From the UHGV virus genome UHGV-0126502: a stretch of 37,604 nt of DNA. One strand, written 5' to 3'. Numbering within the stretch: the first letter of the stretch is position 1; every line of letters starts with the position of its first letter. Below, piece by piece: positions 4,518 through 9,322 of the stretch. Made by a program: the position numbers and the translations under genes. The stretch comes from a virus. Below the pieces are notes generated by a model. It was not told where the DNA came from and ran no database searches. It was given only the letters and a program-made list of their open reading frames with translations.

Positions 4518-5104
4518 TAGCCGCCCCCCAGTAATGACGCCACGTTACCCGTGATGCTTTTCAGCAGTGAAGTATCTGGAGGCTTTATGGTTTTGTTGCC
4601 GCTGTTCTGTACCGCCGACGTGCTGGCCCCTTCCTTCATGTTGGTTTTATCCGCGACGGTAATCTGCTGTGTCCGGGAGATAATGACCTCCCTCAGGGTG
4701 AGGACGGCGGACAGGACGTTTTCGGTTGTCTTGTCCGTCGTCACTTCCAGCGCCCGGATCAACATGTTGCTGTACAGCCGTTTACCGGTTACCACATCGA
4801 AGGGGATACGGCTTTCCTGCAGACCCAGTAGCTCCTGATACGTCTGCTGAGGACTCAGGCCGAGCAGGCTGGTAGCCGTCAGGTTACTGGCAAAATCCAG
4901 CAATGCGCCGCCACCGGCGAAACCAACCTCCATCACCACTTCTGACGGTTTTTTATAGGCATGATCAGCGACAGCGGCCCCGACCTCTACCGGATGCTCT
5001 GTTATTTCAAGCATATCTGTATGCTTCTCTGAAATAACAACACTGGGAACAATCATTCCTATTTTTCTGCTCTGCTGATGAAAAAGTGTAGAGAGAATAT
5101 CCAC
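4517..5104 (-). CDS. Tail protein just after the tape measure (hypothetical; possibly DNA-circulation/baseplate assembly-like)
   Basis: 195-aa ORF, start overlaps the tape-measure stop. Confidence 0.5.
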   Translation of the reverse strand: MDILSTLFHQQSRKIGMIVPSVVISEKHTDMLEITEHPVEVGAAVADHAYKKPSEVVMEVGFAGGGALLDFASNLTATSLLGLSPQQTYQELLGLQESRIPFDVVTGKRLYSNMLIRALEVTTDKTTENVLSAVLTLREVIISRTQQITVADKTNMKEGASTSAVQNSGNKTIKPPDTSLLKSITGNVASLLGGG

Positions 5105-7092
5105 TAACCCACCCTCACCTGATTACTTCGCATGACCTGAGCATTTGCAGACTGTTGCCGACGTGCAACCTCATTACCGACAGCGTGCGGATCTCCGCCA
5201 CCGTAAATGTGGTAGGTATTTTGCTGGTTAACCTCTGTCACTTTGCCACTAATTCCCGCCACGGCAGCCTTATTAATCAGCTCCCGAGAATAGATATTTC
5301 TTCCATTCTCATGCTGGATAATGCTGCTCATCAATGCTGACATGGTTTGCGGATCGCTCATATTCAGGGCAGCCCGGGGAGCCACTCCCAGTCGTTGCGA
5401 TACAGCCCTGATATACGCAGTTGTGTTGTTATTATCAGACGCAGGTGCCCAGGTAGAGATAATTTTCTCCACACTGTTTATTCCCCGTCCGGCGTACAGC
5501 ATTAACTGACGAGCAAGAGCCCGTAATCCATCAAAGGCAGTTTCAAATCTGGCAAATCGCCCGCCCGGGCGTTCAAGAGAAGCCCCTGCCTGACCAGCAA
5601 AATTAAGGTTTCCCGGATTGTTATTCCGTTCTCCTCGTTTCGTAGCCTGTGCATGTTGTTCCGGCTCATCATCACCAAACCAGCCGCGTACCGTCCGGCC
5701 CACACTGCGGGGATCGAATCCCCAGTGCTCTTTAATCCAGTCGGCAGTACTGTTAGCGCTGTCTGTAACCATCGGCATCGCTGACGGATTTTCGCTGCCC
5801 TGATTAAGTATCTGTTTGCCGATGCTGACGGCATCAGCCCAGCGGCCATCTTTGATAGCGTTGAGCAGGTCAGCGATCATGTTCAGCATTTTGCTGAATT
5901 CGCCCATCTGGTCGATGAAGTTGCTGAAATCCCACTTCAGGGACCATGATTTGGGGTCAATATTGAGCAGTTTCGCCAGCGCTTTCACCAGGTCGTTAAC
6001 GGTCGTTTTAAGGTCACGAACCATCTTCAGCGCGGCATCGACCTCCGGTTTCCACTTGCCCCAGTCAATCAGGCTGTCGCCGCCTTCCTTCCAGGTCTGA
6101 TAGTCCTCCCACAGGAGGGCAATACCCGCCGCCAGCGCGGTAATGAGGCCAATCGGCGACATCCAGAACGTACTGTTCAGAATGCGCAGCGCAATCGTCA
6201 GTGCGCCAAACAGCGAGATCAACTCCCGCGTTTGCTTATCCAGCGATTGCCACCAGGTGATAAGGCCTGATGTCCCCTCAATCAGTCTGAAGAACAGCCG
6301 CCCAATAATATCCCCGAGCGCCAGAATGCCTTTTATGGCTTTCGTCAGGGTCTGCTCGATACGAGGGAAGTTGTCCAGGATATGGCGGCGCAGGGTGTCC
6401 AGCGAACCCGCAAGCCCCCACGCAAGATTAGAGCCGATTTTGTCACGGGCCATGCCTGCCATCGCGCCAAACTCACGCAGGGAGGTCATAAATTTGTTGG
6501 AGCTTCTGGCCGCCTCGTCAGCATTGAAGCCGATAGCTTTCGCCATTGCGCTGTACTGCCCGGAGAAGCCACCCACACCCCGGCGCATCGCCATAAGGGT
6601 ATTTTCGTCAATGCCCAGCATCTGCGCATACTGGTTAGCCCGGTAATACGGCATGCTGCTGAGTTTCTGTCCAACGCCCGTAAAAATAGCGGCCATGTCA
6701 CGCATGTTACCGCTGGCATCACGGGTCTGTACGCCCAGGCGATTCAGAAAGCCTTCTGCACCGGGATTGTTACGAATAAACCGGGAGAGGCTTTCCAGAG
6801 AAGATCGCGCAGCGTCCACGCTGCCGCCAACCTGCGAAACCGCATAGCCAATAGACTGAATTCCCTGGACTGTCGCGCCGGTGCGCTGTGACGCCCAGTA
6901 AAGATTATCCAGGCCGGAGGCGATCTTAGCCGTGAAGGCCACCACGGACAGCGCAGCTCCTTCAACAGCCAGCCCCATTTTGATGACATTTGCAGTTGTA
7001 CCGGCGAGGACAGAACCGAACTTTTTCGCTCCTGCATCATCCACACTGAAGCCAAGCGAGACGAGGAAATCTTTAATAGTTTCAGCGTTCAT
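5104..7092 (-). CDS. Tail tape measure protein
   Basis: Largest ORF of the tail module, Ala/Gly-rich with internal hydrophobic helices, directly after the chaperone pair. ORF track starts at TTG 7113; ATG at 7090-7092 with GGAGAGAGG RBS is the more likely start. Confidence 0.85.
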   Translation of the reverse strand: MNAETIKDFLVSLGFSVDDAGAKKFGSVLAGTTANVIKMGLAVEGAALSVVAFTAKIASGLDNLYWASQRTGATVQGIQSIGYAVSQVGGSVDAARSSLESLSRFIRNNPGAEGFLNRLGVQTRDASGNMRDMAAIFTGVGQKLSSMPYYRANQYAQMLGIDENTLMAMRRGVGGFSGQYSAMAKAIGFNADEAARSSNKFMTSLREFGAMAGMARDKIGSNLAWGLAGSLDTLRRHILDNFPRIEQTLTKAIKGILALGDIIGRLFFRLIEGTSGLITWWQSLDKQTRELISLFGALTIALRILNSTFWMSPIGLITALAAGIALLWEDYQTWKEGGDSLIDWGKWKPEVDAALKMVRDLKTTVNDLVKALAKLLNIDPKSWSLKWDFSNFIDQMGEFSKMLNMIADLLNAIKDGRWADAVSIGKQILNQGSENPSAMPMVTDSANSTADWIKEHWGFDPRSVGRTVRGWFGDDEPEQHAQATKRGERNNNPGNLNFAGQAGASLERPGGRFARFETAFDGLRALARQLMLYAGRGINSVEKIISTWAPASDNNNTTAYIRAVSQRLGVAPRAALNMSDPQTMSALMSSIIQHENGRNIYSRELINKAAVAGISGKVTEVNQQNTYHIYGGGDPHAVGNEVARRQQSANAQVMRSNQVRVG

Positions 7093-7722
7093 TATCCTCT
7101 CTCCATTTCTCAATGCGCCGCTGGTTATCCGCTTTTACCGCCAGATGGTCATTCAAAAGAGCAATATCGTACAAATCGACAGAGCCATCTTTAAGTGCTG
7201 TATAAGGAATTAACCCGGCGTCAACCGGATTGAGAAGGTAGGACAGCCCGTCCGGCAGGCTGTTAAACGTCAGCCCTGTTGCAGGCTCTGCGTCGTGCTG
7301 GTAAGGGGTGTAGGCAAAAAATTTCCCAGCGAATCGGCGACCACCCGCGCCACCAGCTGCAGCATGACCAGCAAGTCAATATCATCAAACATCAGTTCGC
7401 CCTGGGTAAATACCGGAACCCATCCGTCCATATGACGCCGCGATACCACCGCAAGACAGGGATGAATAATCGCACTGGTGTCATCTTCGGTCAGGGAAGA
7501 CAGTTCCTCAGCGATACGCGGGAGCATGGTTTCAAACACCGGTTTTAACTGCTCGAATTTCACGGTGTCGATTTTGCCATCAGCAGGCAAACGGGAGCGA
7601 ATGCTCCCGAAATCTGACATCATTCCTGCCAGCACCGGCAGAAGTTTGCGGGTCACTTTCAGTTGGTCAAAAACGCTGAGTTTTGCCACGCGATATTTCA
7701 CGCCTTTGATTTCGAACTCCAT
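7082..7722 (-). CDS. Predicted -1 frameshift fusion product of the tail assembly chaperone (GT-like)
   Basis: On the minus strand, codons GGA AAT TTT TTG contain T_TTT_TTG (plus 7315-7321); the -1 frame is open for about 76 more codons (FFAYTPYQHDAEPATGLTFNSLPDGL...EKWREDNER) to TGA at 7082-7084, filling the otherwise non-coding gap before the tape measure. Confidence 0.55.
7270..7722 (-). CDS. Tail assembly chaperone (G-like, zero-frame product)
   Basis: 150-aa ORF immediately upstream of the tape measure; slippery heptamer near its 3' end. Confidence 0.7.
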   Translation of the reverse strand: MEFEIKGVKYRVAKLSVFDQLKVTRKLLPVLAGMMSDFGSIRSRLPADGKIDTVKFEQLKPVFETMLPRIAEELSSLTEDDTSAIIHPCLAVVSRRHMDGWVPVFTQGELMFDDIDLLVMLQLVARVVADSLGNFLPTPLTSTTQSLQQG

Positions 7723-7725
7723 GTA

Positions 7726-8166
7726 TTAAAACTCCCCGAGAACCTGGTCAATCTTGCCGCAGTCAAACACCCACGGCATCGTATTACCGGTTTTAGCGTT
7801 GGCGTTATCCGGTTGTTTCTGGAACGCAACACTGCGTGCCGTGATGATGTCGCCGCTGACCTTGTTGCGGATCACGATAACGTTATTCCCCCATGTGGCA
7901 GAAGACTGGCTCTGTGCGTTATACGCCAGCGACAATTTTTTATTTGTCGGTGATGTCTTCAGAAGGTTAACGGTAATCGTCCCGCTTTTATCTGCATGGA
8001 GACTGTGCATCACTTCGCCATCAGCACCGATGGTCATGGTGTTTTTAGGACCGCCCATCGCAACCACAATCCCCTCTTCAGAACTTGCCGAACCGTACCC
8101 GAGGTCAATCGAACCTGTCGGCCCGGTCAGCGTCGCAGTGACATCCATAAAAGAATAGGTAGACAT
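7726..8166 (-). CDS. Tail tube protein
   Basis: 146-aa ORF directly downstream of the sheath gene. Confidence 0.7.
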   Translation of the reverse strand: MSTYSFMDVTATLTGPTGSIDLGYGSASSEEGIVVAMGGPKNTMTIGADGEVMHSLHADKSGTITVNLLKTSPTNKKLSLAYNAQSQSSATWGNNVIVIRNKVSGDIITARSVAFQKQPDNANAKTGNTMPWVFDCGKIDQVLGEF

Positions 8167-8176
8167 TCACTTCCCC

Positions 8177-9322
8177 TTAGCGAACAACGTTAATCTGTAC
8201 GTCAGCGTAATGAACCGCGCCTGCAAGTTTTATTGCAGCCTGAATCACCGGAGCCTTACGGGCTTCACGTTCTGATTGAGCCTGTTCATCCAGCGGCTGA
8301 GCGTATACGTAATAACCTTTGGGCAGTGTGTCACCTGATGACAACTGACCAAGGTCGCCCCCGTTCCATACGCCCGGAGCAATCAGTCCATTCTGAACGG
8401 CCTGATCCAGTGATTTTTCAACATTTGATAACAGTCGGGTAATACCGGCTTCAGTCTGGGGAACTTTCGTGGTGCTGGTATAAAGCAGGTTATAGAGGCT
8501 GGTCTGCACATAATTCTGTAACCAGTCCAGGCCGTGGCGTTCATCAAAGAAATCGCCGTTAGCCATCACTCCCTGCTGGAGGATAGCTGTATCATTCTGG
8601 TAGTACACGAACACATTGCAGTTTTTTGCATCAAGTGCCGATGCCTGGCTGACTGTCAGTGTTTCATACCCGACCCCCGGCTCCTGCTTAAACTTGAGCG
8701 TAATCGCGGTATTACTGCCATTGAAATTAACCGTGAATGCCCGGCCAAATGCAGATAACGCAGCGTATTTATTACCCGATGAATACTGAATAAAACTGCG
8801 TGAATATCCGGCGGTTTTCAGTTTTGATGCCAAATCATCGCTGGATGCAGTCTGCAGGCATTTATCATCGCTTGTCGTAATCGCCAGAATACGGCTTACA
8901 GAAGAGGATTCGATCGCCGCAGCCACTTTCAGCCAGTCTGCATCCGGAATATCTTCATCGTCTGCAATCCCCAGCCCATACCATGAAGTATAATCGAGCA
9001 TGGCATTCACAGCCTGCTCCAGCGTCTCAGGCGTGGCCTGTTCGCTGTCACCCTTCGTTTTCACCCAACGACCAACAAAAACCTCCTGAGGTTTCGGTGA
9101 TTGTGAGAAAAACACCTGCGCAGCTTTATATTCTGGTGATTCCACGCCAAAATCTTTTCCAATATCTTCCGCGGCAGAATAACGACGAATGCGCTCACTT
9201 ACCGGAATGATTGTGGACGGGCCGAGAATGAGTAATGCACCAAAATTTCGCCCTGATGCTGCACGCGGCGACATGATCACATCAACATTAACAACGTTTG
9301 ATACAGGCAAGCCCTGTGCCAT
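8177..9322 (-). CDS. Contractile tail sheath protein
   Basis: 381-aa ORF upstream of tube and chaperone genes; size and position match sheath. Confidence 0.75.

What the first reader, a model, noticed from the sequence alone, without database searches (positions are those of the whole stretch)
7082..7321. Programmed -1 frameshift in the tail assembly chaperone at T_TTT_TTG
The chaperone zero frame stops at 7270, leaving a 177-nt gap before the tape measure. A T_TTT_TTG heptamer (plus 7315-7321, minus strand) lies 15 codons before that stop, and the -1 frame is open from it to a TGA at 7082-7084, just past the tape-measure start. This is the conserved G/GT arrangement, here with a slippery sequence different from lambda's G_GGA_AAG.
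Basis: partly seen in the sequence, partly recalled or inferred. Interest (0 to 1): 0.45.

Follow-up and report, generated by a model that had tools for sequence, protein, structure and literature searches.

The report
Frameshift in prophage tail chaperone gene
An E. coli prophage tail-assembly chaperone gene very probably makes a second, longer protein when ribosomes slip back one base on a run of T's; this is a well-known phage arrangement, ordinary in kind, that the public annotation of this genome splits into two unrelated genes.

Summary
Every coordinate in the finding is correct. On the minus strand, the chaperone ORF (7722-7270, Pfam Phage_TAC_15) lies between the tail tube gene and the tape measure gene. 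The -1 frame is open from 7375 to the TGA at 7084-7082 and encodes a conserved domain (Pfam DUF6889, E 1e-20) that has no usable start codon. T_TTT_TTG (7321-7315) is the 3' end of a 13-nt run, G_GGA_AAT_TTT_TTG, which contains the only three in-frame slippery heptamers in the gene.

In 52 non-redundant relatives with as little as 48% protein identity:
- The run is frozen at synonymous sites: TTT 52/52, AAT 51/51, GGA 50/52.
- The -1 extension is almost always 62 codons past the zero-frame stop.
- Sequence variation in the extension follows the -1 codon phase.

Distant relatives encode the same G-T junction in one continuous frame and lack the T-run. No downstream RNA structure is conserved. 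The heptamer is the one phage P2 uses for E/E+E', although the proteins show no detectable sequence homology. The GenBank record of Klebsiella phage Mulock already annotates this frameshift in a homologue.

Verdict: interpretation supported; a new member of a known kind; low interest. It remains open whether the slip occurs at T_TTT_TTG, at A_AAT_TTT, or at both.

The parts
7270..7722 (-). Zero-frame tail assembly chaperone ORF ('G'): 150 aa, 16.7 kDa, including the TGA stop at 7272-7270.
   Evidence: ORF list. Pfam Phage_TAC_15 E 4.3e-31. phrog_1688 'tail assembly chaperone' E 3e-65. RefSeq CDS WP_000393963.1. Molecular weight.
7315..7327 (-). Conserved 13-nt slippery run G_GGA_AAT_TTT_TTG. 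It holds three overlapping in-phase heptamers: G_GGA_AAT 7327-7321, A_AAT_TTT 7324-7318 and T_TTT_TTG 7321-7315.
   Evidence: These are the only X_XXY_YYZ heptamers in the ORF. The run is identical in 45 of 55 diverse loci and in 80 of 80 close relatives. Synonymous sites are frozen: GGA 50/52, AAT 51/51, TTT 52/52, TTG 47/48.
7315..7321 (-). T_TTT_TTG heptamer named in the finding. It is the only element present in every intact relative, as T_TTT_TTG, T_TTT_TTA or T_TTT_TTT.
   Evidence: In L106 a -1-frame TAG lies immediately 5' of T_TTT_TTT, so in that relative the shift cannot occur upstream of the T-run. P2 E/E+E' uses the same heptamer.
7273..7375 (-). Overlap window in which the -1 frame is already open while the zero frame is still coding. 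A -1 shift anywhere in this window would give a G-T fusion.
   Evidence: Stop-codon map of the three frames.
7082..7315 (-). -1 frame 'T' segment: 77 codons (7315-7085) plus the TGA at 7084-7082. Joined to G residues 1-136, it gives a 213-aa, 23.9-kDa GT fusion.
   Evidence: Translation. Coding signature in the -1 phase after the G stop: mean entropy 0.69 / 0.63 / 1.34 at codon positions 1 / 2 / 3. Alignment of 52 T segments shows conservation from the first residue after the run. No ATG, GTG or TTG before codon 48 of 77.
7091..7207 (-). DUF6889 domain within the T segment.
   Evidence: Pfam PF21829 E 1.2e-20, residues 39-77 of the 79-aa translation that starts at 7321. phrog_4364 E 1.9e-23. 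Helical in the AlphaFold model, residues 161-212, joined by a low-confidence linker at 144-158.
7336..7356 (-). Upstream patch with suppressed synonymous variation: codons 123-129, CTG GTG GCG CGG GTG GTC GCC. Its role is unknown and it is not universal in the family.
   Evidence: Synonymous entropy scan: L123, R126, V127 and A129 are flagged low, while the rest of the gene is near saturation. The patch differs in the more divergent loci L097, L098, L106, L120 and L134. No significant fold.
5104..7092 (-). Tape measure protein gene (662 aa, with a C-terminal transglycosylase-like region). Its ATG overlaps the GT stop as ATGAACGCTGA.
   Evidence: phrog_2276 'tail length tape measure protein' E 3.6e-282. 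RefSeq start. Sequence.
7726..8166 (-). Tail tube gene immediately upstream (context).
   Evidence: Pfam KPP10_Orf10 / Phage_Tube_PhiTE E 8.8e-61.
8177..9322 (-). Tail sheath gene (context).
   Evidence: Pfam DUF3383 E 7e-101. phrog_205 'tail sheath' E 1.6e-135.

Best explanation
A small fraction of ribosomes translating the chaperone mRNA slip one base backwards on the run G_GGA_AAU_UUU_UUG (7327-7315). They then read the -1 frame to the TGA at 7084-7082. The result is a 213-aa GT protein: G residues 1-136, a flexible linker and the DUF6889 'T' domain. Ribosomes that do not slip make the 150-aa G protein.

By analogy with lambda G/GT and P2 E/E+E', both proteins would coat the tape measure protein, and the T domain would recruit the tube subunit. 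The fixed G:GT ratio set by the slip frequency would be needed for tail assembly.

Shown here:
- the frames, the heptamers and the lack of a start codon;
- protein-level selection on the -1 frame;
- nucleotide-level selection on the run;
- in-frame fused homologues in distant relatives;
- a chaperone-like predicted fold.

Inferred:
- that the recoding is ribosomal rather than transcriptional;
- its efficiency, probably low because no stimulator was found;
- which heptamer is used. T_TTT_TTG is the universal element. A_AAT_TTT is also under selection and has the better A-site codon by the rules measured in E. coli.
- the roles of the two proteins.
For: - Position between tube and tape measure genes, with chaperone family matches.
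- The -1 ORF matches DUF6889 and phrog_4364.
- The -1 ORF has no ATG, GTG or TTG before codon 48 of 77. No start position upstream of the domain is conserved in 52 relatives. RefSeq had to invoke a CTG start.
- In 52 non-redundant loci at 48-86% protein identity, the run sits 13-20 codons (usually 16) before the G stop. The -1 extension is 58-65 codons, and 62 in most.
- Synonymous sites in the run are frozen: TTT 52/52, against TTT 33 / TTC 19 at F112; AAT 51/51; GGA 50/52.
- All 80 close IMG/VR relatives (57 distinct alleles) keep the run, and 76 of the 77 complete loci keep the -1 ORF.
- Third-position-biased variation in the -1 frame. T-segment conservation begins right after the run.
- Distant relatives have single-frame G-T genes whose junction, 'SLARFLAYEP', aligns without a gap to the predicted 'SLGNFLAYTP'. 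They encode it without a T-run, as TTC CTG.
- A Logan contig with T7 in place of T6 encodes exactly the predicted fusion.
- P2 uses TTTTTTG for E/E+E' (PMC3091744; NC_001895 annotation).
- The phage Mulock GenBank record annotates a 'tape measure chaperone frameshift product' on the same run.
Against: - There is no experimental evidence for this element.
- The heptamers are weak in E. coli reporters without a stimulator: UUUUUUG 0.118%, AAAUUUU 0.070% and GGGAAAU 0.069%, against a background of 0.055% (PMC4066793 Table S3).
- No stimulator was found. Downstream folding is no better than shuffled sequence, z -0.47 and -0.42. RNAalifold predicts 0 pairs over 49 sequences. The upstream conserved SD-like patch lies 19-22 nt away, outside the 10-14 nt I recall as the range that stimulates -1 shifts.
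- A T6 run could in principle also give the product by RNA polymerase slippage.
- A few genomic copies are broken: L108, L130, L135 and L043.
Confidence: 0.88

Rival explanations
1. Transcriptional slippage. RNA polymerase adds one extra U while copying the T6 run. A minority of mRNAs then carry the fusion in a single frame, and the ribosome does not shift.
For: - A one-base insertion in the run gives exactly the -1 reading, as the T7 contig L141 and its product P0001 show.
- Homopolymeric U7 and A7 runs are under-represented in E. coli genes in all phases, which Sharma et al. attribute partly to transcriptional slippage (PMC4066793).
- Five relatives carry T7.
Against: - From my knowledge of the field, efficient slippage by bacterial RNA polymerase needs runs of about 8-9 or more. 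Six is short.
- Selection on the A of GGA, and on AAT as a whole, fits tRNA re-pairing on A_AAT_TTT and T_TTT_TTG. It is not expected for polymerase slippage.
- A longer T-run would be favoured under this model, yet G follows T6 in 47 of 52 relatives.
- The P2 precedent is described as a translational frameshift.
Confidence: 0.06
2. Independent gene. The DUF6889 ORF is translated on its own, as RefSeq annotates it (54 aa, CTG start at 7246), and no fusion is made.
For: - RefSeq CDS WP_071819661.1, 'DUF6889 family protein'.
- PHROGs and Pfam treat it as a separate family.
Against: - There is no ATG, GTG or TTG before codon 48 of 77 in the window, and no start position upstream of the domain is conserved across relatives.
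- Protein conservation in the -1 frame begins directly after the T-run, 23 codons upstream of the CTG.
- Independent initiation does not explain the frozen slippery run.
- Distant relatives fuse the two parts in one frame.
Confidence: 0.03
3. Chance or relic. The -1 ORF and the heptamer are fortuitous or a decaying remnant, and only G is functional.
For: - A single in-frame heptamer in a 34-codon window has P about 0.1.
- Some genomic copies are interrupted.
Against: - The -1 frame shows a purifying-selection signature and keeps a constant length across relatives down to 48% identity.
- Active phages such as Mulock, SEN34, YP3 and the vB_EcoM isolates keep the arrangement.
Confidence: 0.01

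Closest known systems
Phage P2 E / E+E' tail assembly chaperone frameshift (Christie et al. 2002 and Xu, Hendrix & Duda 2004, as cited in PMC3091744)
   Same: - Identical heptamer T_TTT_TTG in the same phase.
- Contractile-tail gene order: sheath, tube, chaperone, tape measure.
- The slip occurs a few codons before the zero-frame stop.
- The extended product ends in an overlap with the tape-measure ATG: ATGAGTAA in P2 and ATGAACGCTGA here.
- No downstream stimulatory structure.
   Different: - No detectable sequence homology. P2 E is Phage_TAC_7 and E' is Phage_P2_GpE; here the families are Phage_TAC_15 and DUF6889. BLASTP finds nothing.
- P2 lacks the upstream G_GGA_AAT and A_AAT_TTT heptamers. 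Its context is GTC GGT TTT TTG.
- G is 150 aa here against 91 aa in P2. The slip lies 15 codons before the stop here against 6 in P2.
Phage lambda G / GT (Levin, Hendrix & Casjens 1993; Xu et al. 2004, 2013, 2014, as reviewed in PMC5009743)
   Same: - Same logic: a chaperone gene between the major tail gene and the tape measure gene, a -1 slip near its 3' end, and two products sharing an N-terminus.
- G_GGA_AAT in the run differs from lambda's G_GGA_AAG only at the last base.
   Different: - Siphovirus versus a contractile tail.
- The universally conserved element here is the T-run, not G_GGA_AAN.
- GGGAAAU is a poor shifter in E. coli: 0.069% against 0.277% for GGGAAAG without a stimulator, and 1.05% against 43% with the IS3 pseudoknot.
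Klebsiella phage Mulock 'tape measure chaperone frameshift product' (GenBank MN098327, CPT_Mulock_015)
   Same: A homologous locus at 68% nucleotide identity, with the same GGGAAATTTTTTG run and a 62-codon -1 extension. It is annotated as a two-piece joined CDS.
   Different: It is only a database annotation. The genome announcement does not mention it. No experiment exists. Other relatives (SEN34, YP3, the vB_EcoM isolates and all RefSeq E. coli copies) are not annotated this way.
Poly-T frameshift proposed for Pakpunavirus / Vandenendeviridae and Andersonviridae chaperones (PMC12846349)
   Same: Myoviruses with the same sheath and tube families (KPP10 / DUF3383 type). [quoted passage not shown]
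   Different: Virulent Pseudomonas and Citrobacter phages rather than an enterobacterial prophage. I did not test homology of their chaperones to Phage_TAC_15 / DUF6889.
Two-gene chaperone solution of T4-like phages (Vladimirov, Gautam & Davidson 2022, as summarised in PMC10274946)
   Same: Distant relatives of this same family carry a short Phage_TAC_15 gene followed by a separate long gene. The long gene has a G-like N-terminus and DUF6889 in one frame (L143, L144, L145).
   Different: The window has a single G gene and needs recoding. In the two-gene relatives the T-run is absent.

Membership tests
Tailed-phage G/GT tail assembly chaperone with programmed -1 frameshift (Xu, Hendrix & Duda 2004) | The gene pair lies between the major tail (tube) gene and the tape measure gene. 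| tested here: met
   Tube 8166-7726, chaperone 7722-7270, tape measure 7092-5104.
Tailed-phage G/GT tail assembly chaperone with programmed -1 frameshift (Xu, Hendrix & Duda 2004) | The downstream ORF overlaps the 3' end of the first in the -1 frame and lacks its own start. | tested here: met
   The -1 frame is open from 7375 to 7085. The first ATG, GTG or TTG is at codon 48 of 77, and no start position upstream of the domain is conserved in 52 relatives.
Tailed-phage G/GT tail assembly chaperone with programmed -1 frameshift (Xu, Hendrix & Duda 2004) | A slippery X_XXY_YYZ heptamer lies in zero-frame phase inside the overlap. | tested here: met
   Three overlapping heptamers at 7327-7315, and none elsewhere in the gene.
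Tailed-phage G/GT tail assembly chaperone with programmed -1 frameshift (Xu, Hendrix & Duda 2004) | The frameshift arrangement is conserved in relatives despite sequence divergence. | tested here: met
   52 non-redundant loci at 48-86% identity and 80 close relatives. The -1 frame has a coding signature.
Tailed-phage G/GT tail assembly chaperone with programmed -1 frameshift (Xu, Hendrix & Duda 2004) | Chaperone homology or fold. | tested here: met
Tailed-phage G/GT tail assembly chaperone with programmed -1 frameshift (Xu, Hendrix & Duda 2004) | Both G and GT are made in a fixed ratio, are required for tail assembly and are absent from virions. | not testable with these tools
   This needs protein detection and genetics.
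P2 E/E+E' family (Phage_TAC_7 + Phage_P2_GpE) | Slip on T_TTT_TTG. | tested here: met
   The same heptamer in the same phase.
P2 E/E+E' family (Phage_TAC_7 + Phage_P2_GpE) | Sequence homology to P2 E and E'. | tested here: not met
   BLASTP finds no alignment for T against E' and only E 12 for G against E. The Pfam families differ. This element works like P2 E/E+E' but is not a member of that family.
Lambda-type G_GGA_AAG site | The heptamer G_GGA_AAG. | tested here: not met
   The sequence is G_GGA_AAT. Four relatives lose the first G, and two more (L106, L135) lose GGA, yet all six keep the T-run.
Stimulated -1 frameshift sites (dnaX / IS911 / IS3 type) | A downstream hairpin or pseudoknot 5-9 nt after the heptamer. 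| tested here: not met
   z -0.47 and -0.42 against shuffles. RNAalifold predicts 0 pairs on 49 sequences.
Stimulated -1 frameshift sites (dnaX / IS911 / IS3 type) | An upstream Shine-Dalgarno-like sequence about 10-14 nt before the heptamer. | tested here: inconclusive
   A conserved CGGGUGGUC patch is complementary to the 16S 3' end but lies 19-22 nt upstream. It is absent in the most divergent relatives. The complementarity and the spacing are from my own reading of the sequence.
Two-gene (short + long) chaperone arrangement | Separate genes for the short form and the in-frame long form. | tested here: not met
   The window has one G gene. The arrangement is present only in the distant relatives L143-L145.

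The most novel reading that the evidence does not exclude
The conserved element may be the whole run G_GGA_AAU_UUU_UUG, acting as a tandem slippery 'runway', rather than a single heptamer. Ribosomes would get two or three successive chances to slip, at A_AAU_UUU as well as at U_UUU_UUG. That would produce two GT isoforms, ...GNFFAY... and ...GNFLAY... The cumulative yield could be high enough without any RNA stimulator. The upstream synonymous-constrained patch (7356-7336) might tune it.

Support: the A of GGA is frozen in 50 of 52 relatives, although U_UUU_UUG does not need it. Also, UUU is a much better A-site shifter than UUG in E. coli.
Probability: 0.3. Interest if true: 0.35.

Novelty: new member of a known kind. 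Interest (0 to 1): 0.15.

Why it matters
- **Annotation.** In RefSeq, the 177-nt 'gap' is filled by a 54-aa 'DUF6889 family protein' with a CTG start. About 300 of 5,426 complete E. coli genomes carry this locus, and all 20 listed copies have the DUF6889 CDS. PHROGs lists the same segment as function unknown. The data here indicate that DUF6889 / phrog_4364 is the frameshift-encoded T domain of Phage_TAC_15 chaperones. It should be annotated as a joined CDS.
- **Biology.** This adds a well-sampled family to the G/GT paradigm. The family uses the P2 heptamer without detectable homology to P2. Within one protein family it shows both solutions to the 'two chaperone forms' problem: a frameshift, or two separate genes.
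- **Limits.** It does not open a new question.

Tried and rejected
- **Downstream stimulatory structure.** Folding of 7314-7225 and 7314-7255 is no better than shuffled sequence. A 201-nt fold is not significant either. RNAalifold on 49 relatives gives no pairs. Rejected.
- **Upstream hairpin or SD.** The patch at codons 123-129 has suppressed synonymous variation. It does not fold significantly, lies too far from the run for a dnaX-type SD, and is not kept in the most divergent relatives. Left as unexplained.
- **Homology to P2 E/E'.** None by BLASTP or Pfam.
- **Solved structures and NCBIfam.** No match for the fusion.
- **Literature on DUF6889.** No paper found. The Mulock genome announcement does not mention the frameshift. 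Vladimirov et al. 2022 is not held in the library.
- **Apparent counter-examples.**
  - L108 has an indel that moves the rest of T into another frame.
  - L130 has a deletion within T.
  - L135 (Arsenophonus) has a stop in T.
  - L092, L137 and L138 have a disrupted G or an unreliable start.
  - L043 is truncated.
  - I take these as prophage decay or assembly errors, not as evidence against the frameshift.
- **The heptamer alone as evidence.** Its chance probability is about 0.1, so it is not sufficient by itself.
Full report
**What the window is.** The 37.6-kb window is identical to a prophage in E. coli NCTC9022 (hit H24). The prophage has an integrase, replication genes, a lysis cassette and a contractile-tail morphogenesis module. 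The finding lies in the tail module on the minus strand. In order, the module holds:
- sheath, 9322-8177 (DUF3383; phrog_205 'tail sheath');
- tube, 8166-7726 (KPP10_Orf10);
- a 150-aa ORF, 7722-7270 (Pfam Phage_TAC_15 E 4e-31; phrog_1688 'tail assembly chaperone' E 3e-65);
- the tape measure gene, 7092-5104 (phrog_2276 E 4e-282).

**Checking the observation.**
- The zero frame stops at TGA 7272-7270. The tape-measure ATG is at 7092, leaving 177 nt between them.
- The sequence CTG GGA AAT TTT TTG CCT puts T_TTT_TTG at 7321-7315 in X_XXY_YYZ phase. TTG is codon 136 and the stop is codon 151.
- The -1 frame is open from 7375 to the TGA at 7084-7082, which overlaps the tape-measure start as ATGAACGCTGA.
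The run contains three overlapping in-phase heptamers, the only ones in the whole gene.
- One heptamer on its own is not remarkable. In-frame heptamers occur at 0.30% of codons in this prophage, so P is about 0.10 for at least one in the 34-codon overlap window. The case rests on what follows.

**The -1 frame encodes a real protein segment that cannot start on its own.**
- Its translation matches Pfam DUF6889 (E 1.2e-20) and phrog_4364 (E 1.9e-23).
- In the window, the first ATG, GTG or TTG in this frame after the run is codon 48 of 77, inside the conserved domain. No start position upstream of the domain is shared among 52 relatives.
- RefSeq nevertheless annotates a separate 54-aa 'DUF6889 family protein', which begins at a CTG at 7246.

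**Comparative evidence.**
- A scan of one genome per species returned 55 loci with 37-86% protein identity to the chaperone. A scan of IMG/VR returned 80 close relatives.
- In 52 non-redundant intact loci, the T-run lies 13-20 codons (usually 16) before the zero-frame stop. The -1 frame then continues for 58-65 codons, and for 62 in most. The +1 frame continues for a variable 2-60 codons.
- The run GGGAAATTTTTTG is identical in 45 of 55 loci, and the variants keep T_TTT_TTN.
- Synonymous sites in the run are frozen: TTT 52/52, AAT 51/51, GGA 50/52 and TTG 47/48. Equally conserved residues elsewhere in the gene vary freely, for example F112 with TTT 33 / TTC 19. Across the gene, synonymous entropy is near its expected maximum.
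- After the zero-frame stop, variation follows the -1 codon phase, with mean entropy 0.69 / 0.63 / 1.34 at positions 1 / 2 / 3.
- The aligned T segments are conserved from the first residue after the run, with consensus A-R-T-P-[RY]-Q-R.
- All 80 close relatives (57 distinct alleles) keep the run, and 76 of the 77 complete loci keep the -1 ORF.
- The few broken copies look like decaying prophages or assembly errors: L108 has an indel, L130 a deletion, the Arsenophonus copy L135 a stop, and L043 a truncation.

**A natural control.** An exhaustive profile search found distant relatives (30-41% identity) of 190-210 aa that contain both the G-like part and DUF6889 in one frame.
- Their junction, for example 'SLARFLAYEP' or 'SLARFFTYAP', aligns without a gap to the predicted junction 'SLGNF(L/F)AYTP'. 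It does not align to the zero-frame continuation 'PTPL...'. This fixes the junction to within about a codon of the T-run.
- These genes encode the same residues without a T-run: TTC CTG GCC, TTC TTC TCC, TAC TTC TCG. The run is therefore not dictated by the protein.
- In three contigs the long gene directly follows a separate short Phage_TAC_15 gene (L143, L144, L145). This is the two-gene solution reported for T4-like phages (PMC10274946). It argues that both a short and a long form are needed.
- One Logan contig 98% identical to the window has T7 in place of T6 and encodes exactly the predicted 213-aa fusion.

**Which heptamer?**
- T_TTT_TTN is the only element present in every intact relative. 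In L106 (GGT AGT TTT TTT) a -1-frame TAG lies directly 5' of it, so the shift there must occur on the T-run.
- The A of GGA is conserved in 50 of 52 relatives, yet it is needed only by A_AAT_TTT. The two loci that lose A_AAT_TTT both carry T_TTT_TTT.
- Reporter measurements in E. coli rank UUY as a good A-site shifter and UUG as a poor one. With the IS3 pseudoknot, AAAUUUU gives 11.4% and UUUUUUG 0.77%. Without a stimulator, all three heptamers are near background: 0.070%, 0.118% and 0.069% for GGGAAAU, against a background of 0.055% (PMC4066793).
- I therefore regard the site as the run itself, with T_TTT_TTG certain to be part of it and A_AAT_TTT possibly contributing.
- The products would differ at residue 136: Leu after a slip on T_TTT_TTG, Phe after a slip on the upstream heptamers.

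**Stimulators.**
- None was found. The 60 and 90 nt after the run fold no better than shuffled sequence, z -0.42 and -0.47. RNAalifold predicts no pair in 49 aligned relatives. This matches what is reported for P2 and its Burkholderia relatives (PMC3091744).
- The synonymous-site scan flagged a second constrained patch at codons 123-129 (7356-7336; CTG GTG GCG CGG GTG GTC GCC).
- By my reading, CGGGUGGUC in that patch is complementary to the 3' end of 16S rRNA. It lies 19-22 nt before the heptamers, which is further than the spacing I recall as stimulating -1 shifts. The patch does not fold significantly and differs in the most divergent relatives. Its role is unexplained.

**Structure.**
- An AlphaFold model of the fusion (mean pLDDT 80, pTM 0.73) has three parts: a G domain at residues 1-137, whose last helix (117-137) ends at the slip site; a low-confidence linker at 144-158; and a helical T domain at 161-212.
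- The best viral model hits are tail assembly chaperones, including the Moogle 'tape measure chaperone'.
- No solved structure matches by sequence.

**Mechanism proposed.**
- Most ribosomes terminate at 7270 and make G (16.7 kDa).
- A minority slip -1 on the run, with tRNA-Phe in the P site and tRNA-Leu in the A site, or tRNA-Asn and tRNA-Phe. These read on to 7082 and make GT (23.9 kDa).
- By analogy with lambda, G and the G part of GT would bind the tape measure protein. The T domain would bind the tube subunit and start polymerisation. Neither protein would end up in the virion (PMC5009743). These functional steps are inferred, not shown.

**Rivals.**
- Transcriptional slippage on T6 would give the same protein. 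However, six residues is short for bacterial RNA polymerase (my knowledge of the field), and it would not explain selection on GGA and AAT.
- Independent initiation, as RefSeq annotates, is contradicted by the missing start, by conservation upstream of the CTG and by the fused homologues.
- Chance is excluded by the comparative data.

**Comparison with what is known.**
- The arrangement is the conserved G/GT frameshift of tailed phages.
- The heptamer is the one used by P2 for E/E+E' (PMC3091744; NC_001895 annotation and sequence). P2 has the same gene order and the same stop/ATG overlap with its tape measure gene.
- The proteins are not detectably homologous to P2's. P2 has Phage_TAC_7 and Phage_P2_GpE. 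The element works like P2 E/E+E' but is not a member of that family.
- The GenBank record of Klebsiella phage Mulock, a homologue with 68% nucleotide identity, already carries a joined 'tape measure chaperone frameshift product' on the same run. Its paper does not mention it.
- A 2025 paper proposes a poly-T frameshift (GTTTTT) for chaperones of Pakpunavirus-like and Andersonviridae myoviruses, which share this sheath and tube type (PMC12846349).
- No paper mentions DUF6889.

**Verdict.** This is a new member of a known kind. Its practical value is in annotation: DUF6889 / phrog_4364 is the T domain of Phage_TAC_15 chaperones, and about 300 complete E. coli genomes carry this locus, with the segment annotated as a separate gene in every listed copy. 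Interest is low. The only mildly novel possibility is that the three-heptamer run acts as a tandem slippery site.

Noticed in passing
window 7082-7246 (minus strand): RefSeq/PGAP annotates the distal part of the -1 ORF as a separate 54-aa 'DUF6889 family protein' (WP_071819661.1) starting at a CTG codon. PHROGs lists the same segment (phrog_4364) as unknown function. About 300 of 5,426 complete E. coli genomes carry this locus, and all 20 listed copies have this CDS.
   Followed up: yes
window 7336-7356 (minus strand; codons 123-129 of the chaperone): A second patch of suppressed synonymous variation (CTG GTG GCG CGG GTG GTC GCC) lies 15-40 nt upstream of the slippery run. CGGGUGGUC is complementary to the 16S rRNA 3' end, but 19-22 nt from the heptamers. 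It has no significant fold and is not kept in the most divergent relatives. P2 has GGTGGTCGG directly before its TTTTTTG.
   Followed up: partly
L141 2395-2410 (Logan SRR23924998 contig): A 98%-identical copy has seven T's in place of six, so G and T are fused in one frame (P0001, 213 aa; its cluster has 16 member sequences). This could be a homopolymer sequencing error, a real mutant, or reads from RNA. I could not tell which.
   Followed up: partly
L143 108-1238; L144 2489-3630; L145 577-1718: Distant relatives carry a short Phage_TAC_15 gene followed by a separate in-frame long gene (G-like N-terminus plus DUF6889), with no T-run at the junction. So one protein family uses both the frameshift and the two-gene solution. 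In L146 and L147 only the long gene was seen near the match.
   Followed up: partly
L096 (Chryseobacterium sp. 18061), L139 (Bacillus sp. AFS073361), H21 (Elizabethkingia phage EKP1): Enterobacterial-type copies of this chaperone locus (70-78% protein identity for L096 and L139; 68% nucleotide identity for H21) are recorded under Bacteroidota and Bacillus hosts. This suggests contamination or mis-assignment in those records.
   Followed up: no
L108, L130, L135, L092, L043: These are interrupted copies. L108 has an indel that moves the rest of T into another frame. L130 has a deletion that fuses T to unrelated sequence. L135 (an Arsenophonus MAG) has a stop in T. L092 has a disrupted G. L043 has a truncated -1 ORF. 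They look like prophage decay or assembly errors.
   Followed up: partly
window 5104-7092 (minus strand): RefSeq names the tape measure protein 'lytic transglycosylase'. Its C-terminal third matches endolysin and transglycosylase PHROGs (phrog_873, phrog_7182), so it is a tape measure with a built-in wall-degrading domain.
   Followed up: no
window 37356-37362 (minus strand; integrase codons 81-83): An in-frame A_AAA_AAG heptamer, the strongest bacterial -1 shifter, lies in the integrase gene. It is one of 35 in-frame heptamers in the prophage. I did not examine whether the -1 frame is open there.
   Followed up: no
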